Assembly: GCA_903928075.1 (NCBI GenBank)
Contig: CAIYPD010000076.1
Span: 10,292 to 74,291 of the forward strand
DNA from: Candidatus Firestoneibacteriota bacterium
GTDB lineage: Bacteria > Oederibacteriota > D2-FULL-39-29
Length of the DNA stretch: 64,000 nt
Direction: 5' to 3'
Below are positions 4,521-51,695 of the stretch, one piece after another (positions within the stretch are counted from its first letter, which is position 1; each line of letters begins with the position of its first letter). The notes under the pieces were generated by a model. That model was not told the origin of the DNA. It ran no database searches and worked only from the letters and a program-made list of their open reading frames with translations. A program made the position numbers and the translations under genes.

Positions 4521-4579
4521 ATGTAGTTGCCTGATTTATCAGGCATTTTTAAAGCGCCCAATGAATTGGGCAACTACAT
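4521..4579 (-). promoter_or_regulatory. nested inverted-repeat element at the 3' end of the URO-D-like gene (outer 11-bp arms enclosing two 7-bp hairpins)
   Basis: Outer arms ATGTAGTTGCC (4521-4531) and GGCAACTACAT (4569-4579). Inner hairpins GCCTGAT-TT-ATCAGGC and GCCCAAT-GA-ATTGGGC. No U-tract follows, so it is not a canonical intrinsic terminator. Confidence 0.4.
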
Positions 4580-5692
4580 TGTTTGCAATAGCTTCTTTTT
4601 CCGCTCGATATAATACTTGAAATTTTCATAAGATACTTCAGGAGATATAGTGTGATCAATGGTAGGTATGTAACCGCCCTCTTCTCTCAGGGGCAGGAGC
4701 TTTTTTTCAAGTTCTTCATCTATCATTCTTTTATTGCCAAAAAGTTTTCTTTTATCAATTCCCCCTATAAGAGCAACATCTTTTCCGTATTCTTTCCTTA
4801 CTTTCACCGGGTCCATACCGGCAGCACCCTCGAGCGGCCAGATACAGGTTGCGCCCGCTTCGATAATAAGCGGAATCAAAGGTTCAATATTTCCGTCACT
4901 GTCAAGTTCTATGAATTTCACGCCTTTGCTTTTCACAAAATTGAACATTTGCTTATGCCGCGGCAGGAAAAACTCCCTGTAGGTGGCGGGAGAAAGCAGA
5001 GGTCCGGACTTGCAGGCAAAATCTTCATTGCAAATAAAAGTATCAATCTCAACTTCGTTGAGCGCTTTTTCTGTGACCTGCATAAAATATTCCACAAAAA
5101 AATCCAAAATTTCGTGTACAAGTTCCGGCTGGTCATAAAAAGCGTAGGAAAGCCGTTCCGTCCCCATCATCTCCCGCAAATTCCAGTAAAGGCCGGCAAA
5201 GCCGCAGTTATCGCATAAATAAAGGGGAAAATCCCTCTTCTTCCATTCTATTTTTTTCTTTTCCCAGTCCGCCGGATATCTTTCAGGAAGTTTAGAATCA
5301 AAATGTTTTTTAAATTCAAGAAAATCCACCCGGGTCTTTACATAGAAATCCATAAAGGTGTCCATGGACATCCTGGTCCCGCGCACTTCGCCTTCCTTTA
5401 AACCCCTCCGGGTCTGCCCCCAGTTATCAATATACACAATGTACCTTTCCGTCTCTTCTATTACCTTATGAAGGCCCGGCAGAGGGTCAAACTTCAGTTT
5501 AATATATTCCCGCCTGTCCAGCTCCGCTGCTTTTGGTTCACCCCGGAACCAGTCACCTTTGATATCTTCTTCCCTGGCCCCTTCGTCCAGCCACCTTTGA
5601 TAGGTCTGCCCCCAGACTCCGAGCTCATAGTTCGGTATCCTGTCAACCGCCTTAAAACTCATCGTATTTATATATCTTTCTCTCGCATTCAT
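4574..5692 (-). CDS. uroporphyrinogen-decarboxylase (URO-D) family protein, subfamily b (methyltransferase-like); likely start at 5692, ORF track extends to 5767
   Basis: N-terminal RERYINTMSFKAVDRIP is the URO-D/MtaA family signature (ERVLxAxxxExxDRVP). C-terminal GGYIPTIDH. SD GGAGGAAAAGGA precedes the ATG at 5690-5692. The 25-codon in-frame extension is translated from a conserved leader repeat. Confidence 0.75.
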   Translation of the reverse strand: MNARERYINTMSFKAVDRIPNYELGVWGQTYQRWLDEGAREEDIKGDWFRGEPKAAELDRREYIKLKFDPLPGLHKVIEETERYIVYIDNWGQTRRGLKEGEVRGTRMSMDTFMDFYVKTRVDFLEFKKHFDSKLPERYPADWEKKKIEWKKRDFPLYLCDNCGFAGLYWNLREMMGTERLSYAFYDQPELVHEILDFFVEYFMQVTEKALNEVEIDTFICNEDFACKSGPLLSPATYREFFLPRHKQMFNFVKSKGVKFIELDSDGNIEPLIPLIIEAGATCIWPLEGAAGMDPVKVRKEYGKDVALIGGIDKRKLFGNKRMIDEELEKKLLPLREEGGYIPTIDHTISPEVSYENFKYYIERKKKLLQTM

Positions 5693-5711
5693 AATATATC
5701 CTTTTCCTCCG

Positions 5712-5800
5712 CTTCTCCGCCAAAAAGCGTTGGCGGATTTCGCAATGCTCAACTTCTCATTATTCATCTTGTTTTTCTTCTATCTATTGCTCCATTGCTC
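5712..5800 (-). repeat. conserved ~90-bp 5' leader, copy A (about 90% identical to copy B at 16942-17037), containing a CCGCCAA..TTGGCGG hairpin and a CAATAGATAGAAG motif
   Basis: By-eye alignment to 16942-17037. On the sense strand it carries ATGAATAATGAGAAGTTGAGCATTGCGAAATCCGCCAACGCTTTTTGGCGGAGAAGC. Confidence 0.7.
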
Positions 5801-12099: not shown

Positions 12100-14181
12100 T
12101 CATATTACAACTACGGCCGATTCTGCAGGCACAACTATCTTTCCGGAAGCATTTTTCCATTCCCCGCCGTCTACCAGCCTGTATTTTTTGAAGCTCTGAC
12201 CGTTATCCGCTTTTATTTTAAGTGAAACGGCTTTTTTATTATTGTAGTTGGCTATGGCCACTCCCAACTTTTTTGTTTTCCGGTTTATAAACGAAGTATA
12301 AGGGTGGTGCGCTTTGCCCTTGGCATCCTTGACCGAAACACCCACTGTATCCCTGAACTCGCCGTGCCAGAAATAATCCGCAAGCTCCGTCCGTAGAACA
12401 TCCATCTTCTTTGCATATTCTAGGGTGACAGGATAGTCATCAAGATGTCCTTTGAAGTTGTAAGGCTCATGGCTTATCACATATTTGTAGAGCAAGCACT
12501 GGTTAACCATATTCCGATCCTCAAAGCCCGTAATGGCGGTCATTATGTTGGCTGTCGGGAAAATATACCGTGATATGGGCGTATGTCCTCTTTCACCGGA
12601 TCTGAAATATGAATTCTCATATGTTTCAAATTCCCAGAAATATATAGCCTCACCCGCGTACAGGAAATCTTTATTTACTTTATCAGAAAGCTTTCTAAAG
12701 TTTTTAATGAGCTGCCTGTCATTCGCGTAAACCGGAGCGCCATACCTGTGGCCGTGGCTCATATCAAAGCAGGCCTGTGTACTGTGATGATGGAAACACT
12801 CATCAAAAAGTATCCCCGCCGCGCCAAGGTCCAATGTCTTTTGAAATTCTTTGTTACAGAGTTTCAGATATTCTTTATCCTGCAAACACATAGGAATAAG
12901 CCGTTTGGTATTGATATCCATCAACTGTGTCGCGGTCTGATATTGATAACCAGGATGATAATAATGATTCCCGTAGGGGTCTTTTATTGTGAGTTTTTTG
13001 TATTTCTTCACAAAGTCCTTGGTCCCCTGGTCCGCCCAGGTGAACTTCGCAAACAATATAACCTTTACTCCCATGGCGTGGATCTTTACGATGGCCTCTT
13101 TCAGTTCTTCAAAAGTCCCGAGCCTGGGGTCCGGGTCATGGGAAGGGTTGCCCTGGTCCTGTCCACCATCGTTCCAGCCGACAAGCTGAATTGCCGCAAT
13201 TCCGTGCCTGGCGCACTCTTCACCAACCTTCGGAAGGTCCTTGAACTTCATCCTGAGTTCATCCTCCGGAGAATTGATATGCAGCTGCAGCCAGGAATGA
13301 ACACCCTTAGCCCAGGAAGCTTTCTTTGATGTTTTAAGCCATTTACTCTGCCATTCTTTATAAATATCGGCGCCCACATGCCAGCCGCCCTTGTAAGCCT
13401 GAAGTACTATCGGTGTTAATTCTCTGGTCTCTCCCGGGTTTATGTAGGGAATATGTATCGCGCCGAAACGGGTATGAACATCCTTCCCCGCCATGGTAAG
13501 CGTTTCAGGAACTTTTTTTTCCATCTCACTGGACCAACCCGGCCTTAGCTCCGCGTGCCAGGCATGTGTATCACAGCTGTTGGTGGCCGGCCCCATGTAA
13601 AGCCCCTGGGTCGGAGTGCGAAGCAGTATAAAGACCTGGTAAGGGAAGTTACCGCATATCTGAATAGGGTAATCAACGCCAAAATACCCTTTTGTATTGA
13701 TAAATTCCGGCCAGAGACTCCAGTCATTTACGCTGGAATAGCCCGGAAAAGTAAATTTCGTCCACTCATCATTCTTCGGATGCTGAATATCCCCTATATA
13801 GGGGCAGTAGAAGTTCTCTACCATATATGAGGAGTCGTTCTTGATGGTTGAATAGTATATTGCCTGTTTGTCGGTGAGCTTTATCTTTATGGTGACCTTT
13901 ATTTTATGAAAACCTCCGAACTCCGAGGTAACGCCGTCCCAGACAAAGGTTATTTCCTTTTTATTCTTTGCGACCAGGCACGAAGTGACAGCCTGTTTTT
14001 CTCCAATCACATCATTATTTCTTTTTCCCGGGAGAGGCACCATCATCCTGAAAGAAAGTCCGAGTTGCGGCCTGTTAAGTAATTCCCACCCGGTCACTTT
14101 AGAAGTGAGGCGGGTAAGCGCGCCATTCACGGTATTAAACTCCATCTTCAAAGTCTTATTCTCAAGTGTTACTACCGGCAT
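12100..14181 (-). CDS. putative glycoside hydrolase (TIM-barrel, family unassigned), no signal peptide
   Basis: 693 aa. Central block GWNDGGQDQGNPSHDPDPRLGTFEELKEAIVKIHAMGVKVILF is typical of hydrolase-like (beta/alpha)8 barrels, with flanking beta-rich domains. SD AGGGGGAA upstream. Confidence 0.45.
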   Translation of the reverse strand: MPVVTLENKTLKMEFNTVNGALTRLTSKVTGWELLNRPQLGLSFRMMVPLPGKRNNDVIGEKQAVTSCLVAKNKKEITFVWDGVTSEFGGFHKIKVTIKIKLTDKQAIYYSTIKNDSSYMVENFYCPYIGDIQHPKNDEWTKFTFPGYSSVNDWSLWPEFINTKGYFGVDYPIQICGNFPYQVFILLRTPTQGLYMGPATNSCDTHAWHAELRPGWSSEMEKKVPETLTMAGKDVHTRFGAIHIPYINPGETRELTPIVLQAYKGGWHVGADIYKEWQSKWLKTSKKASWAKGVHSWLQLHINSPEDELRMKFKDLPKVGEECARHGIAAIQLVGWNDGGQDQGNPSHDPDPRLGTFEELKEAIVKIHAMGVKVILFAKFTWADQGTKDFVKKYKKLTIKDPYGNHYYHPGYQYQTATQLMDINTKRLIPMCLQDKEYLKLCNKEFQKTLDLGAAGILFDECFHHHSTQACFDMSHGHRYGAPVYANDRQLIKNFRKLSDKVNKDFLYAGEAIYFWEFETYENSYFRSGERGHTPISRYIFPTANIMTAITGFEDRNMVNQCLLYKYVISHEPYNFKGHLDDYPVTLEYAKKMDVLRTELADYFWHGEFRDTVGVSVKDAKGKAHHPYTSFINRKTKKLGVAIANYNNKKAVSLKIKADNGQSFKKYRLVDGGEWKNASGKIVVPAESAVVVI

Positions 14182-14249
14182 TTATTCCCCCTGTATACTT
14201 TTTTTTCTTATTTTGTGCTATTTCTCATTAGTCTTGTCATCTTGTCGTC

Positions 14250-15488
14250 TTACCCCTCCGTTATCTTCCTTACAATCCCCACCCACTTCTTCAATCTGGA
14301 AACATCGCCTTGAAGAGTCTCAACATCTTTTAATGTAATGTGCCAGTAACTTTCCTTGAAGGCGTCCTTTGCGTCAGTGATTATCCTTTTTATCCGGTCT
14401 TCATCCCAGGAGGTGCAGACCATATCGGTGGGATTGGGCCTGAAGGAACAGATGTAATCTTTTTTTATCTGTTCGGCGCATTTACGATAGTTAGCAACCG
14501 GCGTCACGGCAATGCTTCTCAAGTTCTTTACCTTCCGGAGCATATCTATTTTTTTTGTAAGATCCTCACAGCACCCGTAATGCGTCATCGCAAATTTTTC
14601 CATTATCGGCTGCTGGTACCGGAGCATAAATTCGTCATGAAACTCCGGCGAGACCAGCGTCAATTCCTGAGAGGCCATAAAGCCCCAGAGCTCTTTTCTC
14701 TTTGAGGGCGTATTGGGTTTGCGCCAGGGAAGCTCATTGCAATACGGCATTGCCTGGTTACCGCTCATGGTCAGCGTAAAATGCCCCGCCTCCTCCGCCT
14801 CCTGCTGATTCGTCAGTATCCCATCCCGCATAAAAGCCAGGAGTTGATGCAGTTCCTTCGGACTCTCGTACATATCCAGCATCATCTGCTCAAGCCCCCG
14901 GATATTAGCCAGGTCAGTGGAAATATCCCCCATAAAGCCAAGATACGCAGGGCCCCTTATTATATCTATCGGAATTATTTTACCTATCGCTTCGGCAAGT
15001 CTGTTATATTTTCTTTTTGTATCCTCTTCGTCTATCGCATGGTGCAGGGCTTTGATTTTTCCAATATCCTTCCAGTCTTTTATAATAGCATCAAGATGAA
15101 ATGCGCCGCCTTTCTGGGCAGACTTCGTCATCTGCCGTTCAACTCCCCAGTGATTATCCCAGGTCCCTTCCCGGGTTCCGGCAAGTTCTATCCAGGGCTC
15201 ATTTACGGCATCATGCCCGGTTTCTTCTGATAAAAGCCGAAATTTAAATGTCCGTTCGTAACCCCTGAAAAACTCATCTTCACACGCCATGTTTTTATCA
15301 GAAAACATCTCCTTACACCAGGCCTCCCAAAATCCGTTATTCAATAGGATGGGCGGCCGCGTTTTCTTTTTATTAAAATGGTCGCTCCAGAGCTTCCTTC
15401 TTTCTTCCTGAATAGGCTTAGTCGCAATTTCCATATATTGCCTGGCAAGGTCCTGTACTATTTTAATATCTTTTTGATTAGTAGGCAT
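14250..15488 (-). CDS. uncharacterised ~415-aa paralog family 'c' protein (copy 1 of 3), partner of the URO-D-like gene
   Basis: Shares with 50337-51608 and 57450-58706 an N-terminal P(V/I)Q(K/E)E...LW motif. Also shares a C-terminal YGCCE(D/P)L(T/D)KKI...R(K/S)I(A/S)V(T/S)P(V/W)A...DY(I/V).S and (H/P)(I/V)EFI(L/I)KD. SD AAGGAGA upstream. Confidence 0.6.
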   Translation of the reverse strand: MPTNQKDIKIVQDLARQYMEIATKPIQEERRKLWSDHFNKKKTRPPILLNNGFWEAWCKEMFSDKNMACEDEFFRGYERTFKFRLLSEETGHDAVNEPWIELAGTREGTWDNHWGVERQMTKSAQKGGAFHLDAIIKDWKDIGKIKALHHAIDEEDTKRKYNRLAEAIGKIIPIDIIRGPAYLGFMGDISTDLANIRGLEQMMLDMYESPKELHQLLAFMRDGILTNQQEAEEAGHFTLTMSGNQAMPYCNELPWRKPNTPSKRKELWGFMASQELTLVSPEFHDEFMLRYQQPIMEKFAMTHYGCCEDLTKKIDMLRKVKNLRSIAVTPVANYRKCAEQIKKDYICSFRPNPTDMVCTSWDEDRIKRIITDAKDAFKESYWHITLKDVETLQGDVSRLKKWVGIVRKITEG

Positions 15489-15852
15489 CTAATCTCCTTT
15501 GTATAGATAACAAGACCAAATGTACAGCAAACAGCTAACGGATGTACGGCTAATACCTTCTTTCTTTTGCTGTCTGCCTTGCATCCAATCCTCCGCTCTT
15601 CTATCTTTCACTTTGTACCTTGTCCTCCAAAGAACTTCTTTGGAGAGATCTCGCCTAATGGCGGATACTTCGTACTTTGTACTCTTGTTATCTTGTATTC
15701 TTCTCTACTCTTGCCAACCCTCTCCGCCAAGTTTGCTTGGCGAGATCTCGCTGTAAGCGGACAACCATCCACTTTTCCGTCCTCAGTCCTCCGGCTTCTG
15801 GCCTCATGTTTTCACTCTTGCCAAGCCTCTAACCATCCAAACATCCAATCCT
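15489..15852. repeat. repeat-rich 364-bp spacer with palindromic REP/MITE-like units
   Basis: Perfect 10-bp-arm palindrome CTCCAAAGAA-C-TTCTTTGGAG at 15626-15646. Two copies of (palindrome)-AGATCTCGC-(TAATGGCGGA / GTAAGCGGACAACC). Internal direct repeats CATCCAATCCTC at 15581 and 15841. Related unit at 41481-41580. Confidence 0.7.
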
Positions 15853-16923
15853 CTATCTATACTTGCCGTAGTTCTTTGCTGTTTCATACATCGCGAGCAC
15901 ATTTTCTGTCGGCGAATTATCCTGCAGAGCGTGAGTAGGCGCAAAACAATAACCGCCGCCCGGCATCATAATATCCAGCGTTTTTTCACAATATTTTACG
16001 GTATCTTCAACCTTACCAAAAGCCACAGGTCCGGCCGTACTTATACAGCCGTGGAAAGCAAGACGCCCGCCGAATTTTTTCTTTAAATACTCGGGGGACA
16101 TATTTGCCGCTTCCGGCTGGAGGGTATCCACCACATTTATGCCCATCTCAATAAAATCTTCATAAGCCCAACTACTGCTACCGCAGGTATGAATCATCAC
16201 AGGAAGCTTAAAACTTTTAGCCATGTCTATTATTTTTTGATGAAAAGGCCTGATTGCTCTTCTATATAGTTCCAGGCTTATCATCGGCGCAATCTGGGTC
16301 CCCAGGTCTTCCCCCATCCATAAAAAATCTACAGCGCCCTTAGCGGCTTCAATGGTCCGTCTGGTTATTTCGAGGTTAATATCGACCCTGCGCTTTGCCA
16401 GAAGCAGCCCCGCCGGTTCATCCGTCATAAGGTCAACTAAAACCTGTTCCATTCCCCGTACCATTCCGCTTGAATTAATAATGTCGCCGAGTCCGGCTCC
16501 GCCCACATATAGAGCATACTCTTTATTCTTTTTGCAATGTTCCTGTACCCCGGAAAAATCAAATTTGTCCGGATCCGGCATCGGCCAGTTAGCCACCTCT
16601 TCTTCCGTGGCATTCTGTAGCGGGAAATCACAAAAATCAAGGTAACCTCCGCTCTCATGTTCTATCCAGCGTGTATGCATACCCCAGTCGTTTACCTTCA
16701 CCCCTCTTTCAGGTATATCCTTATGAAGTTTTGGCCCAAGATATTTTGTCACTCCAACCCCGCGAAAATCCACGCCCAGCACATTTATGAGTTCATCTCC
16801 GTCTTTGACCTTAAAATGCTTTATAAGCCTCTCGTTTATGCCCGGATTGGCCGCGTAGTTTATCGGCACCCGGTCCGGTGTTCTATTCGCAAAAGTAGTG
16901 AGTACGCGTTCTTTAGAATTCAT
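15853..16923 (-). CDS. URO-D family protein, subfamily b (likely start at 16923, ORF track extends to 16953)
   Basis: MNSKERVLTTFANRTPDRVP family signature. HTCGSS (HxCG) segment. C-terminal MMPGGGYCFAPTHA. SD AAAAAGGAG 7 nt before the ATG. Confidence 0.8.
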   Translation of the reverse strand: MNSKERVLTTFANRTPDRVPINYAANPGINERLIKHFKVKDGDELINVLGVDFRGVGVTKYLGPKLHKDIPERGVKVNDWGMHTRWIEHESGGYLDFCDFPLQNATEEEVANWPMPDPDKFDFSGVQEHCKKNKEYALYVGGAGLGDIINSSGMVRGMEQVLVDLMTDEPAGLLLAKRRVDINLEITRRTIEAAKGAVDFLWMGEDLGTQIAPMISLELYRRAIRPFHQKIIDMAKSFKLPVMIHTCGSSSWAYEDFIEMGINVVDTLQPEAANMSPEYLKKKFGGRLAFHGCISTAGPVAFGKVEDTVKYCEKTLDIMMPGGGYCFAPTHALQDNSPTENVLAMYETAKNYGKYR

Positions 16924-16941
16924 TTTTCTCCTTTTTATCAG

Positions 16942-17037
16942 CTTCTCCGCCACAAAGTGTTGGCGGATTTCGCTATGCTCAACTTCTCATAATTCATCTT
17001 GTTTTTCTTCTATCTATTATCTATTGTTCCATTATTC
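16942..17037 (-). repeat. conserved 5' leader, copy B (paralog of 5712-5800)
   Basis: About 90% identity to copy A by eye. Sense strand encodes a 19-codon upstream ORF MNYEKLSIAKSANTLWRRS ending at a TGA just before the SD. Contains a CCGCCA..TGGCGG hairpin. Confidence 0.7.
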
Positions 17038-17289
17038 TACCCCGGGAGAAGGTATGGATGAGGGTAATGGTTTTCTAATCTCCATAAGAGTCGTAAAGGT
17101 CTATAAATGAAAACAATATATTTCAACGATTTTAGACCTTAAGAACCTTAAGAACCTTAAAAACTTTATAAACTTCTTTTTCCCTCTTTCCCCAATTGTA
17201 TCTATTTGGCCAGCCAATTGCAAGAATTTTACCTGACGGTTCACTTAAGAAATCCTGAATCAGGATAAACTTGATTTTAATAAAGCATA

Positions 17290-18813
17290 ATGTTATTATC
17301 CCTTATGATTAAGAACCCCAATGTCCTACTTATAACCACCGACCAGCAGAGATTTGATTCCATTGCCGCACTCGGAAACTCAAAGATAAAAACACCCAAC
17401 CTTGATAAACTTGTAAAAAACGGGGTGGCCTTCACGCGAGCTTATTCCTCATGTCCCGAATGCGTACCGGCAAGAATAACAATTAAAACCGGGATGCCGC
17501 CGTGGCGGAGCGGTTCTACTAACAACGGTGAGAAGATAAAACCAAACACCGATACCCTTATGTCAGTTTTAGCCAAAGGCGGCTACCACACCCAGGCCAT
17601 AGGCAAGATGCATTTTATTCCTACAAGAGCAAAATTCGGGTTCAAAGAGATGTGGCTTTCCGAGGAAGTACCGATAAAAGCAAGTGAGGATGAATTTTTA
17701 ACAGAACTTATAAAAAAAGGGTACGGCCACGCGGAAGAACCGCACGGAATGAGGAGCTTTCTATATTATGTACCGCAGGTCTCCCAGCTCCCCGAAAAAT
17801 TGCACACGACCGCCTGGACCGGAAGAAAGACCGTAGAATATTTAGCCCGGCGGAAGAAATCAAAGCAGCCGTTTTTTCTCTGGACTTCTTTTATCAAGCC
17901 GCATCCGCCCTTCGATCCGCCGGTGCCTTTTAACAGCATGTACAATCCGCTTGACATGGACCTTCCCATTCAAGAGAAAGACGCCGATAAAAATTACACC
18001 TTCTGGAATTACTGCCAGAACCGGTATAAATGGATGGAAAGTAACCGTAACGATGTCTTTAAACAGGCGCAAAAAGCTTTCTACTACGCCTGCATAAGTT
18101 TTGTCGACAAACAACTGGGCCTGATATTTGAGGCCTTGAAAAAGAACGGCCAGCTTAAAAATACGGTTATAGTTTTCACCGCCGACCATGGCGAATACCT
18201 CGGGGACCATTTCTGCTACGGCAAACGAGGCTTTCAGGATTCCGCGGCCAGGGTGCCTTTTATTATTTCCTACCCGGCCTATCTGCCTAAAAACAAAAGG
18301 GTTGAGGCGCCCGTCGGACACGCTGACATAATGCCGACTATCTTAAGCCTTTGTAATCTGGATTACAGAAAACCGCAGTACGGCTGGGATCTGACGCCTA
18401 AAATGAAAAATCCCTTTTCCAGCGCGAGGAAATATTTCTACGCCCAGTACAACAGAAAAGGTTATGCTATTTATATGTGCATGGATTCAAAATGGAAATA
18501 TATCTATGATGTGGCCGGAAAAAGAGAAATATTCTATAACTTTATAAAGGACCCGAAAGAAATAACAAATCTGGCCGGAAAGACTAAATACAGGAAAGAG
18601 AAATTAAGATTAAAGCAGGAACTAATAAAGCACTTTAAAGAACAGGGGAATTTTGAGGCAATAAAAGGAACTGAGTTCCGGTCCTACGCCAATAAGAACT
18701 TGAAACGCTATAAGAACCTGTCCGGCATAAATAATAATTCGAAAGACGGCCGGCTCTTCCAGTATGCGCTTTGGACCAATAGGAACAGTGACATGTGGAG
18801 CTCTTTAATGTAG
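17290..18813 (+). CDS. Cys-type sulfatase (arylsulfatase family), no signal peptide
   Basis: LLITTDQQRFD metal-binding N-terminus. Formylglycine motif C-V-P-A-R in SSCPECVPARITIKTG. 507 aa. Confidence 0.9.
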   Translation: MLLSLMIKNPNVLLITTDQQRFDSIAALGNSKIKTPNLDKLVKNGVAFTRAYSSCPECVPARITIKTGMPPWRSGSTNNGEKIKPNTDTLMSVLAKGGYHTQAIGKMHFIPTRAKFGFKEMWLSEEVPIKASEDEFLTELIKKGYGHAEEPHGMRSFLYYVPQVSQLPEKLHTTAWTGRKTVEYLARRKKSKQPFFLWTSFIKPHPPFDPPVPFNSMYNPLDMDLPIQEKDADKNYTFWNYCQNRYKWMESNRNDVFKQAQKAFYYACISFVDKQLGLIFEALKKNGQLKNTVIVFTADHGEYLGDHFCYGKRGFQDSAARVPFIISYPAYLPKNKRVEAPVGHADIMPTILSLCNLDYRKPQYGWDLTPKMKNPFSSARKYFYAQYNRKGYAIYMCMDSKWKYIYDVAGKREIFYNFIKDPKEITNLAGKTKYRKEKLRLKQELIKHFKEQGNFEAIKGTEFRSYANKNLKRYKNLSGINNNSKDGRLFQYALWTNRNSDMWSSLM

Positions 18814-18881
18814 CAGGTGCCGTCCTTAAATTATAGTCGAAAGAAGTTTAATAAGTATCATTCCCGCCGCAAAAAGCAGTA

Positions 18882-18974
18882 TCAGCGAAAAATAAAACCT
18901 CCTCCGATGTCAAACATCCCTGACAAAAAACCCACGGCCAGTCCTAAGACCACAAACCCGAAATATTCCAGCAT
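18882..18974 (-). pseudogene. 30-codon remnant of a TauE/SafE-type exporter N-terminus, translationally coupled to the sulfatase stop
   Basis: Minus-strand ATG at 18974-18972 overlaps the sulfatase TAA (TAATG). Encodes MLEYFGFVVLGLAVGFLSGMFDIGGGFIFR then a stop. Compare the intact TauE at 35121-35912 (GIFGGMFGLGGGIIMIPLL). Confidence 0.35.
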
Positions 18975-20452
18975 TATGTTACCTGCCTGTCTACCGGCCT
19001 GCCTCCAAATTTCTTCAATGTCAGAGCGTGATTCTTTCTTCCTGTCTCAGAAAGCCTTTTACAGTAGGCTTCGATTTCTCCTCTGGCGTGGTAAGGCCCG
19101 CCTTCTTCCATTACCGTATCAAGAGGATCAACACCGCTGGTAGAAGTTCTCATCATCTCCTCGCGCCATTTTGTAAGCTTGACCAGGCCTTCGCTGCTTT
19201 TCTGAGGATTTTGTTTTGATATTTCTTTAAGCAGATGCGGGTCTTTCTTAAAATCAAAGAGCATATGCTCCGGAAAATTTTTCAGCCCTGTATGATAGGT
19301 TTTCATAAACAAAAAATCCCCGAAGATAACGGCACGCTGACAGCTCCAGGCGCACTGACTTACTACAATAAAATCTCTGGAATATTCTTTGCCTTTTTTC
19401 AGTTCCCCGGCAAAACTTTCCCCGTCCCACTTAGCAGGTACTTTAAGCTTTAAAAGTTCCAGTATAGTAGCGCCGATGTCCACCTGATAATGCAGACCCT
19501 TATCCACCCCGGGTTTAAGCAGGCCCGGCCATTTTAAAATGAAGGGCACCCGAGAAGTAATAGTATCGGCGGTCTGATGGTCACCGTATATATTAAATTC
19601 CCCCTGGTTCTCCCCATGATCGGAACTTATCATGATAACCGTATCTTCAAAAACTCCGTGTTTTTTTAACAGGTCTATTATTTTACCGGCATAATGATCC
19701 GCGTAATTTATTCCAAGGTCATAACCGTCTATCCACTGTTTATAATCCTCAAGCGACTTTATCTCGTTAGGCATTTCAAGTAACTCCGGGCCTTTAGGCA
19801 CCCCGCCGCTAAAACCATTTCTGTCCCGGGCGCTGTAGGGACCGTAGCCTTCATAATGTTCTTTAATGATCTTCTCGTTTATCCAGGCCGGAGGCGGCTC
19901 ATTCTTAAAAGGATTTCCGAATTCCTTTGGCGTTTTATAAACCGTGTGAGGATCCCACATATTCACATGCAGGAACCAGTTGTCGGTTTTCGCATTTTTA
20001 TTCAACCACTCCTCTGCGTAAGGGTAGATTTCATCGGCTCTTTCACTGCCGTGTTTACCGGTATTGAACATCTCTTTAAATCCGGAATAGAACCACCAGG
20101 AAGCGTGTCTTTCGGCAAACGGGCTGACGGATACGGTATGCAGGCCGCTTTTCTTCAGAGTAGTCACAAACGATTGGAACTCAGGTGAGTCACTAAAACC
20201 CCTGTTTTTACCTTCCGGGTAAGGGTCGGCGTTAAGCCCACCGTGATTTACCACCCCCGAATGTATTCCGAACCTTCCTCCGAAAAAAGAACTGCGGGAA
20301 GGCAGACAGGGCGCATCGGAAGCAAAACACTTTTCAAACCTGACCCCGCTTTCAGCTACCTTATCAATATTCGGGGAGGTTTTCCTGTGATAACCGTAAC
20401 AGCCGAGGTGGTCGGCTCTAAGCGTATCTATATCAAGGTAGAGTATTCTCAT
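18974..20452 (-). CDS. Cys-type sulfatase, no signal peptide
   Basis: ILYLDIDTLRADHLGCYG. Formylglycine motif C-L-P-S-R in DAPCLPSRSS. 492 aa. Confidence 0.9.
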   Translation of the reverse strand: MRILYLDIDTLRADHLGCYGYHRKTSPNIDKVAESGVRFEKCFASDAPCLPSRSSFFGGRFGIHSGVVNHGGLNADPYPEGKNRGFSDSPEFQSFVTTLKKSGLHTVSVSPFAERHASWWFYSGFKEMFNTGKHGSERADEIYPYAEEWLNKNAKTDNWFLHVNMWDPHTVYKTPKEFGNPFKNEPPPAWINEKIIKEHYEGYGPYSARDRNGFSGGVPKGPELLEMPNEIKSLEDYKQWIDGYDLGINYADHYAGKIIDLLKKHGVFEDTVIMISSDHGENQGEFNIYGDHQTADTITSRVPFILKWPGLLKPGVDKGLHYQVDIGATILELLKLKVPAKWDGESFAGELKKGKEYSRDFIVVSQCAWSCQRAVIFGDFLFMKTYHTGLKNFPEHMLFDFKKDPHLLKEISKQNPQKSSEGLVKLTKWREEMMRTSTSGVDPLDTVMEEGGPYHARGEIEAYCKRLSETGRKNHALTLKKFGGRPVDRQVT

Positions 20453-21543
20453 TGTCTTATTCCTCCTGCCAATGTTTTCAATCTCACAATACTGTAACCG
20501 AAAAACTCTTTATAGGCTTCACACAGATAGTCCAAAGAACTGAAATTATCGTCTTTTATCAATCTGTATTTTAGACAGCCCCCGTTACATATATATTTCC
20601 ATTTGCAAAGCGCGCATTTTTCATTTACATCTGCTTTTTTAACCCCGAAATTTTCTTTAGCAAGACGGAAAGAATCCTCAAAGGAGGCATCTTTTATGCT
20701 CCCGAGTTTCCTCTCTTTCTTCACAAAAAAGTCGCAAGGATAGATATCCCCGTTATATTCCAGTGCAAGATAGTCGCCGCAGGTGCTCTTAAAACCGCAA
20801 TAGGTGGCATCATAGCCCGAAAGTATTTCCAGGATATTATCAAAAAATCTTACCGAGACCGCCGGCTTGCCTCCGTTCCACCACAGATCAAAGAATTCGC
20901 ATAAAAATTTACAGTAGGTTTTTGAGTCTACCGAAAATTCTGATAGCTTTCCCATGCTGTCCTTTTCCACACACGGGATAAGTTGAACAAAGTCAAAACC
21001 CTCTTTGACATAGAAATTATAAAGGTCTGCAGGCCGGGCAGCATTAAAACTATTTATTACGGTCAGTATATTAAAATCCAGTTCTAATTCTCTTAATAAC
21101 GCAATTCCTTTCATGGCTCCTTCAAAACTCTTCCCCCTGTGAAACTCATGCATGGGCCTGTCCCCATCCAGACTGATACCCAGCAGAAAATTATATTCCT
21201 TGAAAAGTTTTATGAATTCTTCATTCAATAATGTTCCGTTTGTCTGGACACTGTTGCCGACCCTCTGGCCTTTTTTTCCGTGTTTTTGCTGAAGCTCAAT
21301 AACTCTGCGGTAAAAAGTAACTCCGGCAAGCAGAGGCTCCCCGCCCTGCCAGGAAAATACCGCCAAACCCCCGTTTGAATACTGCATGGCCTTTAAAACA
21401 AGGGTTTCAAGGATTTTATCTTCCATGAGATGCTTGCCCGCCCCATAAATTGATTCCGTAGATTTATAAAAACAATAAGAACAGGCCAAGTTACAATCAA
21501 ATGACACAGGTTTAACTAAGAGTTCAATATTTTTCAAAGTCAA
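20449..21543 (-). CDS. anaerobic sulfatase-maturating enzyme (radical SAM, SPASM domain)
   Basis: CNLACSYC (CX3CX2C) radical-SAM cluster. C-terminal Cys-rich SPASM region CALCKWKYICNGGCLKYR. 4-bp overlap with the upstream sulfatase indicates an operon. Confidence 0.9.
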   Translation of the reverse strand: MTLKNIELLVKPVSFDCNLACSYCFYKSTESIYGAGKHLMEDKILETLVLKAMQYSNGGLAVFSWQGGEPLLAGVTFYRRVIELQQKHGKKGQRVGNSVQTNGTLLNEEFIKLFKEYNFLLGISLDGDRPMHEFHRGKSFEGAMKGIALLRELELDFNILTVINSFNAARPADLYNFYVKEGFDFVQLIPCVEKDSMGKLSEFSVDSKTYCKFLCEFFDLWWNGGKPAVSVRFFDNILEILSGYDATYCGFKSTCGDYLALEYNGDIYPCDFFVKKERKLGSIKDASFEDSFRLAKENFGVKKADVNEKCALCKWKYICNGGCLKYRLIKDDNFSSLDYLCEAYKEFFGYSIVRLKTLAGGIRQ

Positions 21544-21560: not shown

Positions 21561-22280
21561 CTATTTATTTTCGCCAAAGATTGAGTAAAGGGCAATACCT
21601 ACGGCTATTGAAAGGTTCAAAGAGTCTATCTCTTTGCTCTGGGGAATGACAACACTTTTTCCGGTATGAAGGAACTCTTCAGGCAGGCCGGAACTCTCGC
21701 CGCCGAAGATATAGGAGGCCGGGCTTTTTACTGCCAGTTCATCCAGCCTGTTTTTCCCGTTGGTAAGAAAAGGGTAAAATACCCTGTCTTTAAAATCTTC
21801 CGCGTAGCCGTCAAAATTTTCGTAGTACTTAAAATTAATTTTAAATAGGCTTCCCATGGAAGCCCTTACAACGGAAGGATCAAAAATATCCACGGCCGGC
21901 CGGATAAGGGCAAGTTCCGTGATATTAAAACCGGCCATCGTCCGCAAAATGGTCCCGAGGTTGCCGGCATTTTCCGGATTCACAAGAACAAGATGGTCTT
22001 TCTTCTTTGCCGGGCTGCCTTCGTATTTTTTAAAGACACCCGCAGCGTAGCAGTTTTCCTTTGATGAGATAAGGTCTATACCGGCATCATTCACGCAAAG
22101 CGGAATTCCTTTCTTGCCGCAGATGTCCTTTATCTTTAAAACACCTTCATTATTGTTCGCTTTTGAGTTAAGTATTATTTCTAGAACGCTTTCCGGACGG
22201 TTGAGCAAAAGTTCCACCGTGGGAAATATACCCGCGGCATAAGAATACTCAAACTCCTTCTTGTATCTCTTGATCTTCAT
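21561..22280 (-). CDS. SpoU/TrmH-family RNA 2'-O-methyltransferase
   Basis: LVLVNPENAGNLGTILRTMAGFN. IFGGESSGLPEE. SLNLSIAVGIALY motif. Confidence 0.8.
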   Translation of the reverse strand: MKIKRYKKEFEYSYAAGIFPTVELLLNRPESVLEIILNSKANNNEGVLKIKDICGKKGIPLCVNDAGIDLISSKENCYAAGVFKKYEGSPAKKKDHLVLVNPENAGNLGTILRTMAGFNITELALIRPAVDIFDPSVVRASMGSLFKINFKYYENFDGYAEDFKDRVFYPFLTNGKNRLDELAVKSPASYIFGGESSGLPEEFLHTGKSVVIPQSKEIDSLNLSIAVGIALYSIFGENK

Positions 22281-23401
22281 CAGACAGTTTTCCCTTTTTC
22301 GGCTTCTTTTCTTTCTTTCACCCAGGAAGAAATCTCCTTAAGCCTTTCAATTATATTGATATGCTGGGTGCATTTTTCTTCGCAGACCCCGCATTCGGTA
22401 CAAAGGTCCGCCTGCTCTGGCGCCACATCCCAGTGCCATTTCATCTGTCCGAAATAATTTTCCTTACTTTCAAGTATGGTCTGATTATACGCCAGCATGT
22501 GTTTTGAAACCTCTATCTCCTGAGGACAGAACTCGCAATACCGGCAGCCGGTGCAGAGCTTATCCATCCCGATACTTAATTTTCCCTGTATCTCCAGTTT
22601 TTTGCTTTCAGGGAAGTCCTTTATCTTTTCCCCGGCTTTTACATTTTCAAGAACCTCCGCCACGGTTCCCATCCCGCAGATATTGGTGGTTATTTCTTTT
22701 TGAGAAACTAAAAATCTAAGAGCCGCGTCCGCCGGTGTTGCATCATCGGTGTTTTTCAGGTATTCAAAGAGTTCCGCTCTTTTTGGTATCAAGCCGCCGC
22801 TCAAAGGATTCATCACCACCACGCCCAGGCCGTGGTCATACGCTGCCTTTATACCTTTTTGCCTGAAAGGGAAATTAAGAATATTGTACCCCAGGGTAAC
22901 CCCCTCAAAAACATCATCTTTAACAATAAGTTCTATCTCTTCGCCGGTGCAATGCGTGGAAAACACAATATGCTCAATCAGCCCTTCCTTTTTAGCCTGC
23001 ACGGCAGCCTCATAAGACCCGCCTTTCTTCATTCTTTCTTTATAATCCGCCAGGGTCTTAATGCTCCAGATATTGAAAAAGTTTATTTTTTTCAGATTAA
23101 AGCGTTTCAAGGATCTTTCGAGTTGTTCCCTGACGACAGCCCCTTCCAGCGCGCCGCTTTTTGTAGAAACATAAAACTGCCCCGGCATCTTTTGGAAAGC
23201 CCGCCCGAATATCTGCTCACTGTTATCTGCGCAATAGCCCGGAGCTGTATCAAAATAATTCACCCCGCACGCATTGGCTTTTTGGACCACCCCGGCACAT
23301 TTATCATAATCATATTTTCCGTTTTCAGCAACAAAGCGCATTCCTCCGAAACCGATAACAGATATTTTTTTTCCTGTTTTACCATACTGCCTATATTGCA
23401 T
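22280..23401 (-). CDS. aldo/keto reductase fused to a 2x[4Fe-4S] ferredoxin-like domain
   Basis: AKR N-terminus YRQYGKTGKKISVIGFGGMRF. C-terminal CTGCRYCEFCP and CTECGVCEEKC clusters. Confidence 0.8.
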   Translation of the reverse strand: MQYRQYGKTGKKISVIGFGGMRFVAENGKYDYDKCAGVVQKANACGVNYFDTAPGYCADNSEQIFGRAFQKMPGQFYVSTKSGALEGAVVREQLERSLKRFNLKKINFFNIWSIKTLADYKERMKKGGSYEAAVQAKKEGLIEHIVFSTHCTGEEIELIVKDDVFEGVTLGYNILNFPFRQKGIKAAYDHGLGVVVMNPLSGGLIPKRAELFEYLKNTDDATPADAALRFLVSQKEITTNICGMGTVAEVLENVKAGEKIKDFPESKKLEIQGKLSIGMDKLCTGCRYCEFCPQEIEVSKHMLAYNQTILESKENYFGQMKWHWDVAPEQADLCTECGVCEEKCTQHINIIERLKEISSWVKERKEAEKGKTV

Positions 23402-35120: not shown

Positions 35121-35912
35121 CTATTTTTTCTTTTTAAAAATTATTAATAATGCTATTAAAAATACCACTATTCCCGTAAGGGTTCTCAGTTGATCATTTT
35201 TTATCTGCCCCGCAAAATATATTCCTATGCCTGACCCGAAAACCGCGCCGCCGGCCAGCAAAACAAATAACCGCATGTCCAAAGCGCCCGTCTTAAAAGA
35301 TTTTAGAGAGCCGGAAACTGAGGTTGGGACCATTATTGCCAGTGAAGTCGCCGTTGCCATGTGCGCCGAAAAACCAAAGCCTAATATAAGCATCGGCAGC
35401 ATTAATACTCCGCCGCCCAGACCGAGCATTCCGGAGAAAATTCCGACAATAACACCCAGGCCTACAAGAATAAAATGCCCCGTCAAAGCAATCTCCGGCA
35501 GAGTCCCTGCGGTGGTTTTCCATAATTTAAAAATCATAGCCAGGGAAGTAAGGAGAACTGCAACACCGAGAATTTTCCGCAAGGCCTCCTGCGGTACTTT
35601 TTTTTGCCACGCTGCCCCCAGATAGGCACCGCCTATAGACCCCGCCGACATAAGGACAAAAGCCGTATAATTAATATTTCCGGTAAAAATATTGTTTATA
35701 GAACCGGCCAGAGCCATCGGGCCGATTACCGCAAGTGAAGTAGCCGTTGCTGTATGCAGATTTTTTTTAAATACGAACAACAACAGCGGGATCATTATTA
35801 TTCCGCCGCCAAGACCGAACATCCCGCCAAAAATACCTATAAAAAGACCGAGGATTAAAACCAATGCGTTGTAGCGCAGGGTTATTTTAGTATTCTTAGA
35901 AAGTTCATCCAT
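35121..35912 (-). CDS. sulfite exporter TauE/SafE family membrane protein
   Basis: Duplicated G-rich TM repeats GGMFGLGGGIIMIPLLL and GMLGLGGGVLMLPMLIL. Confidence 0.85.
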   Translation of the reverse strand: MDELSKNTKITLRYNALVLILGLFIGIFGGMFGLGGGIIMIPLLLFVFKKNLHTATATSLAVIGPMALAGSINNIFTGNINYTAFVLMSAGSIGGAYLGAAWQKKVPQEALRKILGVAVLLTSLAMIFKLWKTTAGTLPEIALTGHFILVGLGVIVGIFSGMLGLGGGVLMLPMLILGFGFSAHMATATSLAIMVPTSVSGSLKSFKTGALDMRLFVLLAGGAVFGSGIGIYFAGQIKNDQLRTLTGIVVFLIALLIIFKKKK

Positions 35913-51608: not shown

Positions 51609-51695
51609 TAGATACGGTCTCCTTTTTAAGTCAATAACAGATTACTATCTGTAATACTTCTCAACCGTCTTTTATCAGTTATCATCCATATTTTA

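What the first reader, a model, noticed from the sequence alone, without database searches (positions are those of the whole stretch)
12100..21543. Second glycan island: GH-like protein, methyltransferase-like pair, two leaderless Cys-type sulfatases and anSME
The sulfatases (C-V-P-A-R and C-L-P-S-R) and the fucosidase and GH-like protein I read through have no signal peptides. The radical-SAM maturase is cytoplasmic by nature and forms an operon with one sulfatase (4-bp overlap). This implies uptake of sulfated, possibly methylated, oligosaccharides and intracellular desulfation. Bacteroidetes and Verrucomicrobia fucoidan degraders instead desulfate in the periplasm or outside the cell.
Basis: partly seen in the sequence, partly recalled or inferred. 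Interest (0 to 1): 0.6.

Follow-up and report, generated by a model that had tools for sequence, protein, structure and literature searches.

The report
Leaderless sulfatases with their maturase
An uncultured, Firestonebacteria-like bacterium keeps two sulfate-removing enzymes without export signals next to the enzyme that activates them, a glycosidase-like protein and two proteins of unknown function; this points to sulfated sugars being desulfated inside the cell, a strategy already known from other anaerobes.

Summary
Window 12100-21543 encodes six proteins: a DUF6259 protein with a GH36/GH129-like fold, two URO-D/MtaA-fold proteins (X1, U1), two Cys-type S1 sulfatases (CVPAR, CLPSR), and a radical-SAM maturase that passes the anSME equivalog cut-off. 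The maturase overlaps one sulfatase by 4 bp.

None of the six can carry a signal peptide. In-frame stops lie 0-19 codons upstream of each start. Both sulfatases also belong to clades that are overwhelmingly leaderless and Cys-type.

- Cytoplasmic desulfation is the best reading, but it is not unusual. About a quarter of Kiritimatiellales sulfatases are predicted to be cytoplasmic, and Bifidobacterium breve has sulfatase-anSME clusters with a transporter.
- No importer, regulator or fucoidanase lies in the window.
- The substrate is unproven. Sulfatase 1 is closest to BT1918 (S1_46), but the residue that recognises its substrate differs. Sulfatase 2 fits no characterised subfamily.

The more interesting part is the X/U pair. 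It occurs three times in the window, and X belongs to an unstudied family of more than 1,800 members found in carbohydrate contexts across many phyla. A role in anaerobic sugar O-demethylation is possible but speculative.

Verdict: a new member of a known kind, of modest interest.

The parts
12100..14181 (-). DUF6259 protein (693 aa), leaderless. Predicted N-terminal beta-sandwich, (beta/alpha)8 barrel and C-terminal beta-sandwich, like GH36/GH129/GH31 alpha-glycosidases.
14250..15488 (-). X1: 412-aa URO-D/MtaA-fold protein from an uncharacterised family, with an invariant HYGCCE motif (aa 303-308; nt 14565-14582).
15489..15852 (-). 365-bp non-coding spacer between U1 and X1, with short direct repeats spaced about 100 bp apart.
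   Evidence: No Rfam match.
15853..16953 (-). U1: URO-D/MtaA-like protein (366 aa; public gene callers start it at MNSKERVL, giving 356 aa). It has an H-T-C-G motif at aa 255-258 (nt 16180-16191).
   Evidence: Pfam URO-D 7.2e-13, C-terminal half only. NCBIfam MtaA/CmuA hits are far below the cut-offs. Alignment with U2-U5. 32% identical to 51696-52805.
17290..18813 (+). Sulfatase 1: leaderless Cys-type S1 sulfatase with CVPAR at aa 58 (nt 17461-17475) and DHG at aa 299. Its closest solved relative is BT1918 (S1_46).
   Evidence: Pfam Sulfatase 3.2e-51, starting at residue 10. PDB 7oz8 3.5e-68, and 7OZ8 is BT1918, S1_46. PRK13759 arylsulfatase 341 bits, below the 481 cut-off. Its relatives are 89% leaderless and 94% Cys-type.
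18974..20452 (-). Sulfatase 2: leaderless Cys-type S1 sulfatase with CLPSR at aa 49 (nt 20294-20308) and DHG at aa 278. It is a divergent, unassigned subfamily.
   Evidence: Pfam Sulfatase 8.5e-38, starting at residue 3. The best PDB hits score only about 1e-22 to 1e-32 and span several subfamilies. The 120 closest homologues are all leaderless, and 119 are Cys-type.
20449..21543 (-). Anaerobic sulfatase-maturing enzyme (radical SAM/SPASM). It has CX3CX2C at aa 17-24 (nt 21472-21495) and eight further Cys for two auxiliary clusters. It overlaps sulfatase 2 by 4 bp.
   Evidence: TIGR03942 370.8 bits, above the 349.45 cut-off. Pfam Radical_SAM and SPASM. Cys positions.
21561..23401 (-). SpoU methylase and an aldo/keto reductase with a 4Fe-4S dicluster domain, packed directly upstream of the anSME (17-bp gap; 1-bp overlap between the two). 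They are probably in the same transcription unit. Any functional link is unknown.
   Evidence: The same order is kept in L001, L084 and L092.

Best explanation
The island is a cytoplasmic module for processing small, imported sulfate esters, most probably sulfated mono- or oligosaccharides. It sits in an anaerobic, uncultured bacterium whose closest named relative is Candidatus Firestonebacteria.

Shown:
- An anSME with the radical-SAM CX3CX2C motif and eight auxiliary-cluster cysteines is translationally coupled (4-bp overlap) to a Cys-type S1 sulfatase.
- A second Cys-type S1 sulfatase lies convergent to the first.
- Neither sulfatase, nor any other island protein, can carry a signal peptide.

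Inferred:
- The anSME oxidises Cys49 of sulfatase 2, and probably Cys58 of sulfatase 1, to formylglycine in the cytoplasm. The enzymes stay there.
- They hydrolyse sulfate esters of substrates small enough to be imported by a transporter encoded elsewhere.
- The DUF6259 protein, with a GH36/GH129-like architecture, cleaves an alpha-glycosidic bond of the same or a related substrate.
- U1 and X1 (URO-D/MtaA fold, with a conserved Cys-containing site on the catalytic face of the barrel) carry out a further, still unknown tailoring step. The released sulfate has to be exported.
For: - Gene identities and motifs.
- No room for leaders, while classical signal peptides occur elsewhere in the window.
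- Clade-wide leaderless, Cys-type character: sulfatase 2; sulfatase 1.
- Carbohydrate link for sulfatase 1: about 40% identity over 450 aa to BT1918 (S1_46, 3S-GlcNAc sulfatase).
- DUF6259 fold matches GH36/GH129/GH31 over 430-550 aa.
- Synteny within the lineage. L001 and L092 (about 81-86% identical proteins) keep AKR-SpoU-anSME-sulfatase 2 / sulfatase 1 / URO-D x2 / X / DUF6259.
- Recurrence in unrelated genomes:
  - L089 has URO-D, URO-D, rSAM-SPASM (37% identical to the anSME) and two sulfatases, one 60% identical to sulfatase 2.
  - L093, L132 and L148 have an anSME next to sulfatase-2 relatives.
  - L088 has a sulfatase-2 homologue followed by three GH42-like genes.
  - L097 has five sulfatases and a GH29.
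  - L023 and L029 have X, a PHP-domain protein, a PfkB sugar kinase and a sulfatase-2 orthologue. L025, L110 and L111 have X near a sulfatase-2 relative.
- Precedents for cytoplasmic sulfatases and sulfatase-anSME clusters: PMC6388578, PMC9239261.
Against: - No transporter, regulator, sugar kinase or recognised CAZy-family enzyme lies in or next to the island. The flanks are housekeeping genes: IMPDH, S15 and PNPase on one side, SpoU and adenylosuccinate lyase on the other.
- The genes form at least three transcription units on both strands, with 337- and 365-bp gaps. A co-occurring strain tolerates an IS3-type insertion between sulfatase 1 and U1.
- Sulfatase 1's best NCBIfam match is 'arylsulfatase'. 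It is also close to the promiscuous Enterococcus arylsulfatase 9KOQ.
- The BT1918 residue that recognises the N-acetyl group (Y94) is Asn in sulfatase 1, by my reading of the alignment.
- Within +-2 genes of sulfatase-2 relatives, the recurrent families are other sulfatases, xylose-isomerase-like TIM barrels and DUF6206. Glycoside hydrolases are rare.
- The X homologue of Firestonebacteria GWA2_43_8 sits beside Zincin_1 and a GH94 protein, without sulfatases.
- Nothing was tested biochemically.
Confidence: 0.55

Rival explanations
1. The two leaderless sulfatases and the anSME act on small sulfate esters that are not carbohydrates (aryl sulfates, choline-O-sulfate, sulfated metabolites). Their role would be sulfur or carbon scavenging or detoxification. 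The DUF6259 and URO-D-like genes would merely be neighbours.
For: - Best NCBIfam hits are arylsulfatase, choline-sulfatase, PehA and Mn-arylsulfatase.
- Sulfatase 1 and sulfatase 2 are related to promiscuous arylsulfatases and phosphonate monoester hydrolases: 4uph, 4upl, 4upi and 9koq.
- Only two sulfatases lie in 64 kb.
- Neighbourhoods of sulfatase-2 relatives contain few glycoside hydrolases.
- No glycan transporter is present in the window.
Against: - The closest solved relative of sulfatase 1 is a carbohydrate sulfatase of S1_46.
- All NCBIfam scores are below their cut-offs.
- Sulfatase-2 relatives occur next to GH42-like genes, a GH29 and a PfkB sugar kinase in other genomes.
- DUF6259 stays linked in the 83%-identical relative.
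Confidence: 0.25
2. There is no functional island. The anSME-sulfatase 2 operon is one unit, and sulfatase 1, U1, X1 and DUF6259 are independent genes that happen to be adjacent in a gene-dense genome.
For: - Both strands are used, with long intergenic gaps, housekeeping flanks and GC content like the surroundings.
- An IS insertion polymorphism lies inside the 'island'.
- X neighbourhoods vary widely across 80 genomes.
- The GWA2_43_8 homologue of X lies in a different context.
- U-like genes are about as frequent near sulfatase-2 relatives (5 of 38 loci) as near X (13 of 83 loci) when +-8-10 kb is considered.
Against: - URO-D-like genes, an anSME and two leaderless sulfatases recur together in L089, at only 60% or lower identity.
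- X lies within 0.4-3.3 kb of sulfatase-2 orthologues in L023, L025, L029, L110 and L111.
- All three X genes in the window are immediately adjacent to a U gene.
- URO-D is the most frequent family within +-2 genes of X (13 of 230 neighbours). It does not recur (at most 1 of 124) within +-2 genes of sulfatase-2 relatives.
Confidence: 0.15
3. The proteins are exported after all, either through mis-called starts or through an unrecognised secretion route, so desulfation would be periplasmic as in Bacteroidota.
For: None found. The only room for doubt is that no dedicated predictor (SignalP or DeepTMHMM) could be run.
Against: - In-frame stops lie 0-19 codons upstream of the starts, and the 19 codons before sulfatase 2 hold no ATG, GTG or TTG.
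- The N-termini are identical across the clades.
- Shine-Dalgarno-like sequences precede the listed starts.
- Classical signal peptides are present on other proteins of the window.
Confidence: 0.03

Closest known systems
Bifidobacterium breve UCC2003 ats1/ats2 glycosulfatase clusters (Egan et al. 2016, as described in PMC9239261)
   Same: A sulfatase gene lies next to an anSME gene in an anaerobe. From my own knowledge of Egan et al. 2016 (that paper could not be read here), the sulfatase is intracellular and the substrate is an imported sugar sulfate, GlcNAc-6-S.
   Different: The B. breve clusters carry their own transport system and transcriptional regulator; this island has neither. This island has a second sulfatase, a DUF6259 GH-like protein and two URO-D-fold proteins. 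The phyla differ (Actinomycetota versus a Firestonebacteria-like lineage).
Clostridium perfringens Cys-type arylsulfatase with anSMEcpe (Berteau 2006; Benjdia 2007; the NCBIfam PRK13759/PRK13758 pair)
   Same: A Cys-type sulfatase is matured by a radical-SAM/SPASM anSME with three [4Fe-4S] clusters. By my recollection of the anSMEcpe structure, the spacing of the eight auxiliary cysteines here (249, 255, 270, 310, 313, 319, 323, 341) mirrors it.
   Different: Sulfatase 1 scores 341 bits against PRK13759, below the 481 cut-off. The anSME scores 288.6 against PRK13758, below the 441 cut-off. They are relatives, not orthologues.
BT1918 of Bacteroides thetaiotaomicron, SulfAtlas subfamily S1_46 (PDB 7OZ8)
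   Same: It is the closest solved relative of sulfatase 1: E 3.5e-68, aligned over residues 8-456.
   Different: BT1918 is Ser-type, and the PDB chain aligns only from its residue 25, so it has an N-terminal extension that sulfatase 1 lacks; that BT1918 is exported is my own knowledge. Sulfatase 1 is Cys-type and leaderless. The tyrosine that reads the N-acetyl group (Y94) aligns with Asn here. The paper reports the same variability for environmental S1_46 sequences.
Predicted cytoplasmic sulfatases of Kiritimatiellales F1/F21 and other sulfatase-rich PVC anaerobes (PMC6388578)
   Same: Anaerobes with almost exclusively Cys-type sulfatases and an anSME. A substantial fraction of the sulfatases (141 of 521 and 106 of 480) are predicted to be soluble and cytoplasmic.
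   Different: Those genomes hold hundreds of sulfatases. This 64-kb window holds two, and the anSME is physically coupled to one of them.
MtaA/CmuA-type URO-D-family methyltransferases and corrinoid-dependent O-demethylase systems (MtvB/MtoB + corrinoid protein + MT2 + activase; PMC8630106)
   Same: U1 and X1 share the URO-D (beta/alpha)8 fold. U3 and U4 in the window carry the full H-x-C...C zinc motif. X (about 47 kDa) is similar in size to MtoB.
   Different: No corrinoid protein, activase or cobalamin riboswitch lies in the window or among the recurrent neighbours. U1 is far below the MtaA/CmuA cut-off (32 versus 235 bits). X has no family assignment at all.
GH36 / GH129 / GH31 alpha-glycosidases (for example AgaA 4FNP, NagBb 5WZN, ZgGH129 5OPQ)
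   Different: There is no detectable sequence similarity: no Pfam GH family and no PDB sequence hit. Catalytic residues are not identified. DUF6259 matched no GH-family model in Pfam, and to my knowledge it is not assigned to a CAZy family; CAZy itself could not be searched.

Membership tests
S1 formylglycine-dependent sulfatases | Pfam PF00884 match above the gathering score | tested here: met
   174.9 bits (sulfatase 1) and 130.8 bits (sulfatase 2) against a cut-off of 25.
S1 formylglycine-dependent sulfatases | C/S-x-P/A-x-R signature at the N-terminus of the catalytic helix | tested here: met
   CVPAR at aa 58 and CLPSR at aa 49. The motif is invariant in the sulfatase-2 family alignment.
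S1 formylglycine-dependent sulfatases | Metal-binding residues (N-terminal Asp pair, D-H/N-G motif) | tested here: met
   Sulfatase 2: D7, D9, D278 and H279 are invariant in A6. Both proteins have DHG, at aa 299 and aa 278. These are assigned by sequence pattern only.
S1 formylglycine-dependent sulfatases | Formylglycine actually formed; sulfate-ester hydrolysis | not testable with these tools
   Needs mass spectrometry and enzyme assays.
SulfAtlas subfamily S1_46 | Sulfatase 1 clusters with S1_46 sequences and shares the residues that recognise the substrate | tested here: inconclusive
   The best solved relative is BT1918 (S1_46), E 3.5e-68. Y94 is not conserved. The SulfAtlas HMMs are not available.
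Anaerobic sulfatase-maturing enzymes (TIGR03942) | Score above the equivalog cut-off | tested here: met
   370.8 bits against 349.45.
Anaerobic sulfatase-maturing enzymes (TIGR03942) | CX3CX2C radical-SAM motif, plus a SPASM domain with cysteines for two auxiliary [4Fe-4S] clusters | tested here: met
   C17, C21 and C24, plus C249, 255, 270, 310, 313, 319, 323 and 341. Pfam SPASM 7.4e-06.
Anaerobic sulfatase-maturing enzymes (TIGR03942) | Genomic coupling to a sulfatase substrate | tested here: met
   4-bp overlap with sulfatase 2. An anSME lies next to sulfatase-2 relatives in L001, L089, L093, L132 and L148.
MtaA/CmuA URO-D-family methyltransferases | Family model above the cut-off | tested here: not met
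   U1 scores 32 bits against TIGR01463, whose cut-off is 235.4. It does pass the Pfam URO-D cut-off (48.7 versus 23.9), but over the C-terminal half only. X1 has no hit at any threshold.
MtaA/CmuA URO-D-family methyltransferases | URO-D (beta/alpha)8 fold | tested here: met
MtaA/CmuA URO-D-family methyltransferases | Zinc ligands H-x-C ... C | tested here: inconclusive
   U3 and U4 have HICG ... GC. U1 has HTCG, but His stands at the third position. X has HYGCCE, and only C307 aligns with the ligand Cys.
MtaA/CmuA URO-D-family methyltransferases | Cognate corrinoid protein (B12-binding domain) encoded nearby | tested here: not met
   No B12-binding domain in any of the 48 main predicted genes, all of at least 150 aa. 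None among the recurrent neighbours of X. No cobalamin riboswitch.
Clan GH-D-like glycoside hydrolases (GH27/31/36, GH129) | Beta-sandwich, TIM barrel, beta-sandwich architecture | tested here: met
Clan GH-D-like glycoside hydrolases (GH27/31/36, GH129) | Sequence membership of a CAZy family; catalytic Asp nucleophile and acid/base | tested here: not met
   No GH Pfam family and no PDB sequence hit. Catalytic residues were not mapped.
Intracellular glycosulfatase utilisation cluster (B. breve ats type) | Dedicated transporter and regulator in the cluster | tested here: not met
   No transporter or regulator lies between 10253 and 24443.

The most novel reading that the evidence does not exclude
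The recurrent X/U pairs would be an enzyme system that removes O-methyl groups from sugars without oxygen. X is an uncharacterised URO-D-fold family with more than 1,800 members. U is an MtaA-like, zinc-motif protein. The pairs are embedded with a GH29 fucosidase, a DUF6259 glycosidase-like protein and leaderless sulfatases. Such a system could work by zinc-activated alkyl transfer, with a corrinoid partner encoded elsewhere or, like MetE, without one. [quoted passage not shown] The evidence does not exclude this, but supports it only by fold, by a conserved Cys-containing site and by carbohydrate-type gene neighbourhoods.
Probability: 0.1. Interest if true: 0.8.

Novelty: new member of a known kind. 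Interest (0 to 1): 0.35.

Why it matters
The core finding extends a known strategy to an uncultured candidate phylum with almost no functional literature: cytoplasmic, anSME-matured, Cys-type sulfatases acting on imported sulfate esters. Only 17 papers mention Firestonebacteria, and none of them mentions sulfatases. It also shows that both sulfatases belong to large, overwhelmingly leaderless clades. This is useful for annotation, because 'sulfatase' should not be read as 'periplasmic' in these lineages.

The greater potential value is in the accessory genes:
- X is a widespread URO-D-fold family without any family model. It is repeatedly paired with MtaA-like genes and found in sugar-catabolic contexts.
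- DUF6259 has a GH36/GH129-like architecture and may be an unclassified glycoside hydrolase family. It has a member in Mahella australiensis, which to my knowledge is a cultured species.

Either would be a tractable target for biochemistry.

Tried and rejected
- An exact look-up of sulfatase 1 in public contigs found nothing. Public gene callers start it five codons later, giving 502 aa.
- PDB sequence searches with the X profile, U1 and the DUF6259 protein gave no significant hit.
- A relaxed Pfam scan of X1-X3 gave nothing.
- The promoter/terminator scan found no more sites than shuffled sequence, so it says nothing about operon boundaries.
- Rfam found nothing in the whole window at gathering thresholds, so no cobalamin or other riboswitch supports a cofactor hypothesis.
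- Literature searches found nothing for DUF6259, for Firestonebacteria with sulfatase, for URO-D with sulfatase and fucosidase, or for corrinoid O-demethylation of methylated sugars.
- Egan et al. 2016 could not be read. The SulfAtlas paper has no statement on localisation.
- The afdb50 fold library was unavailable.
- Horizontal acquisition of the island was considered and dropped. GC content (0.43-0.46) matches the flanks, and the order is conserved in relatives.
- A fucoidan-specific role was considered and rejected. There is no endo-fucoidanase, only one GH29, and only two sulfatases in 64 kb.
- The first ORF-based neighbourhood count missed genes, and was replaced by tblastn.

Full report
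**What is there.** Window 12100-21543 holds six genes.
- 12100-14181(-) is a 693-aa DUF6259/DUF5696 protein.
- 14250-15488(-) is a 412-aa protein with no Pfam or NCBIfam match (X1).
- 15853-16953(-) is a 366-aa URO-D-family protein (U1).
- 17290-18813(+) is an S1 sulfatase with CVPAR at residue 58.
- 18974-20452(-) is an S1 sulfatase with CLPSR at residue 49.
- 20449-21543(-) is a radical-SAM/SPASM protein. It scores 370.8 bits on TIGR03942, 'anaerobic sulfatase maturase', above the 349.45 cut-off. It has CX3CX2C at residues 17-24 and eight more cysteines in the SPASM region.

The maturase overlaps sulfatase 2 by 4 bp. An aldo/keto reductase with a 4Fe-4S domain and a SpoU methylase are packed directly upstream of the maturase on the same strand. 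The flanks are housekeeping genes: IMPDH, S15 and PNPase on one side, adenylosuccinate lyase on the other. GC content does not differ from the surroundings.

**Are the proteins really leaderless?** Yes.
- The ORF lister starts at the first ATG, GTG or TTG after a stop. In-frame stops lie 0 (DUF6259), 0 (X1), 11 (U1), 2 (sulfatase 1), 19 (sulfatase 2) and 7 (anSME) codons upstream.
- The sulfatase Pfam domains begin at residues 10 and 3.
- No island protein has an N-terminal hydrophobic stretch or a TM-like segment. Five other proteins of the same window have textbook signal peptides, so this organism's export signals are recognisable.
- The GH29 fucosidase at 52916-54217 is likewise leaderless.

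This is a property of the clades, not of this one genome.
- Among the 120 closest homologues of sulfatase 2 (54-100% identical), 114 have the catalytic Cys at exactly position 49, 119 are Cys-type, and none has a hydrophobic N-terminus.
- Among 124 single-domain-sized cluster representatives related to sulfatase 1, 110 have the motif at or before residue 66, and 116 are Cys-type.

**Organism.** The closest named relative of X1 is a protein of Candidatus Firestonebacteria GWA2_43_8, at 73% identity. The window's GC content (about 43%) agrees. This assignment rests on one protein and is tentative. The same population, with identical DUF6259 and sulfatase-2 proteins, is present in several metagenomes. 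In one of them an IS3-type element sits between sulfatase 1 and U1.

**What the sulfatases resemble.**
- Sulfatase 1's best solved relative is PDB 7OZ8 (E 3.5e-68, residues 8-456). This is BT1918, the 3S-GlcNAc sulfatase of SulfAtlas subfamily S1_46. The tyrosine that reads the N-acetyl group aligns with Asn, so the substrate need not be GlcNAc. The paper notes such variability in environmental S1_46 sequences.
- Sulfatase 1 is also related to arylsulfatase-type enzymes: PRK13759 at 341 bits, below its 481 cut-off, and the Enterococcus EfAS structure 9KOQ. Its next-nearest 50%-identity cluster is only 42% identical.
- Sulfatase 2 is divergent. The best hits, with the single sequence or with a family profile, are spread over several subfamilies at E 1e-22 to 1e-32. 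Its subfamily is unresolved.

**The GH-like protein.**
- The DUF6259 family is strongly conserved (about 57% identity, about 698 aa) and leaderless. It includes a protein of Mahella australiensis.
- The AlphaFold model (pLDDT 79.8) has an N-terminal beta-sandwich, a (beta/alpha)8 barrel and a C-terminal beta-sandwich.
- 'GH-like' is therefore well founded at fold level. There is no sequence membership of any CAZy-type family, and I did not map catalytic residues.

**The 'methyltransferase-like pair'.**
- A profile-profile comparison of the X family with the window's U proteins gives probability 96.9%. It aligns the invariant Cys307 of X's HYGCCE motif with the zinc-ligand Cys of the MtaA H-x-C motif.
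- U3 and U4 carry the full H-x-C...C motif. U1 and U2 have H-x-C with His at the third position. U5 has lost the motif.
- The pair is not unique to this island. X/U pairs occur three times in the window, plus two solitary U genes, and one pair flanks the GH29 fucosidase.
- X is a large family of more than 1,800 hits. It occurs in Verrucomicrobiota, Lentisphaerota, Kiritimatiellia, Planctomycetota, Armatimonadota, Spirochaetota, Chloroflexota, Omnitrophota and others.
- Within +-2 genes of X in about 80 genomes, the recurrent families are URO-D (13 of 230 neighbours), AraC regulators (9), sulfatases (5), GFO/IDH/MocA oxidoreductases (4), GH2 (3), GH32 (2) and PfkB kinases (2). This is a carbohydrate-catabolic flavour.
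- No corrinoid protein recurs among the neighbours, none is in the window, and there is no cobalamin riboswitch.

**Is the island a unit?** Evidence that it is:
- A relative with about 83% identical proteins keeps the order AKR-SpoU-anSME-sulfatase 2 / sulfatase 1 / URO-D x2 / X / DUF6259, with three inserted genes.
- An unrelated genome (L089; sulfatase 2 60% and anSME 37% identical) has URO-D, URO-D, rSAM-SPASM and two sulfatases side by side.
- An anSME lies next to sulfatase-2 relatives in L093, L132 and L148.
- X lies within 0.4-3.3 kb of sulfatase-2 orthologues in L023, L025, L029, L110 and L111. In L023 and L029 a PHP-domain protein and a PfkB sugar kinase lie between them.
- Sulfatase-2 relatives also precede three GH42-like genes in L088, and sit with four other sulfatases and a GH29 in L097.

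Evidence against:
- There are at least three transcription units, long gaps, and a tolerated IS insertion.
- The neighbourhoods are highly variable. Within +-2 genes of sulfatase-2 relatives the recurrent families are mostly other sulfatases.
- The Firestonebacteria GWA2_43_8 X homologue has no sulfatase nearby.

**Mechanism I commit to** (confidence about 0.55).
- *Shown:* the gene identities, the motifs, the coupling of maturase and sulfatase 2, and the cytoplasmic location by sequence.
- *Inferred:* the anSME converts Cys49 of sulfatase 2, and probably Cys58 of sulfatase 1, to formylglycine in the cytoplasm. The sulfatases stay there and hydrolyse sulfate esters of small imported sulfated sugars or oligosaccharides. 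The DUF6259 protein removes an alpha-linked residue. U1 and X1 perform an unknown tailoring reaction.
- *Unknown:* the importer, the regulator and the fate of the released sulfate.

**Comparison with what is known.** Intracellular desulfation is not new.
- Bifidobacterium breve carries sulfatase+anSME clusters with a transport system and a regulator (PMC9239261).
- From my own knowledge, the Clostridium perfringens Cys-type sulfatase/anSMEcpe pair is the biochemical archetype.

The label 'fucoidan' has no support beyond one GH29 gene 31 kb away.

**Novelty and score.** The core is a new member of a known kind, in a barely studied phylum. The least ordinary element is the X/U module. Anaerobic demethylation of O-methyl sugars is an acknowledged gap (PMC12316285), and I found no paper linking corrinoid or URO-D methyltransferases to methylated sugars. 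The idea that X/U fills this gap is not excluded. It rests only on fold, on a conserved Cys site and on gene context, and it lacks the corrinoid partner expected from known O-demethylases. I give it about 10%. Overall interest is 0.35.

Noticed in passing
window 50337-52805, 56449-58706, 60364-61365, 4574-5767: The X/U gene pair of the island recurs. X2/U2 flank the GH29 fucosidase, and X3/U3 overlap by 4 bp. Two further solitary URO-D-like genes (U4, U5) bring the total to eight URO-D-superfamily genes in 64 kb.
   Followed up: partly
L084/L090 (JGI 3300022555, Ga0212088_10001134), corresponding to window 16954-17289: A co-occurring strain with identical sulfatase-2 and DUF6259 proteins carries an IS3-type element (HTH_Tnp_1 + rve) in the divergent intergenic region between sulfatase 1 and U1. 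The window and another sample lack it.
   Followed up: partly
window 15489-15852: A 365-bp non-coding spacer between U1 and X1, purine-rich on the coding strand. It has short direct repeats about 100 bp apart (15707/15814, 15640/15737, 15582/15842). There is no Rfam match, and it could be a regulatory leader.
   Followed up: partly
window 21561-23401: An aldo/keto reductase with a C-terminal 4Fe-4S dicluster domain and a SpoU methylase sit immediately upstream of the anSME (1-bp overlap, 17-bp gap). They keep that order in relatives (L001, L084, L092). Whether the Fe-S oxidoreductase serves the maturase is unknown.
   Followed up: no
P0215 (homologue of window 18974-20452): A 56%-identical member of the leaderless sulfatase-2 family is labelled Candidatus Hodarchaeota archaeon. 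This suggests transfer of the family between domains, or a binning error.
   Followed up: no
window 51696-52805: The listed TTG start adds a hydrophobic N-terminus (MLFALTLLSCRLVSLL...) that the paralogues lack. The real start is probably at MTSRERVL, so this is not a signal peptide.
   Followed up: partly
L003 9648-11236; L172 9521-11239; L173 4010-5728: A small Zincin_1 gene lies directly upstream of X homologues in three relatives. In L003 the group also includes a TRAP transporter, a flavodoxin, a URO-D gene and an AraC regulator. This hints that some X/U pairs act on a small imported acid.
   Followed up: no
L023 8898-14844; L029 10001-15980: The conserved arrangement is X, a PHP-domain protein, a PfkB sugar kinase and a sulfatase-2-type leaderless sulfatase. 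It occurs in an Omnitrophota MAG and in an unclassified MAG.
   Followed up: partly
window 58788-60284: A 498-aa protein with a clear signal peptide and no Pfam or NCBIfam match, located between U4 and the X3/U3 pair. It is the only exported protein of the first island.
   Followed up: no
window 35121-35912: A TauE/SafE-family anion exporter about 14 kb from the island, and the only candidate sulfur-oxyanion exporter in the window. No link to the island was established.
   Followed up: no
window 1-64000: No Rfam family reaches its gathering score anywhere in the 64 kb, on either strand.
   Followed up: yes
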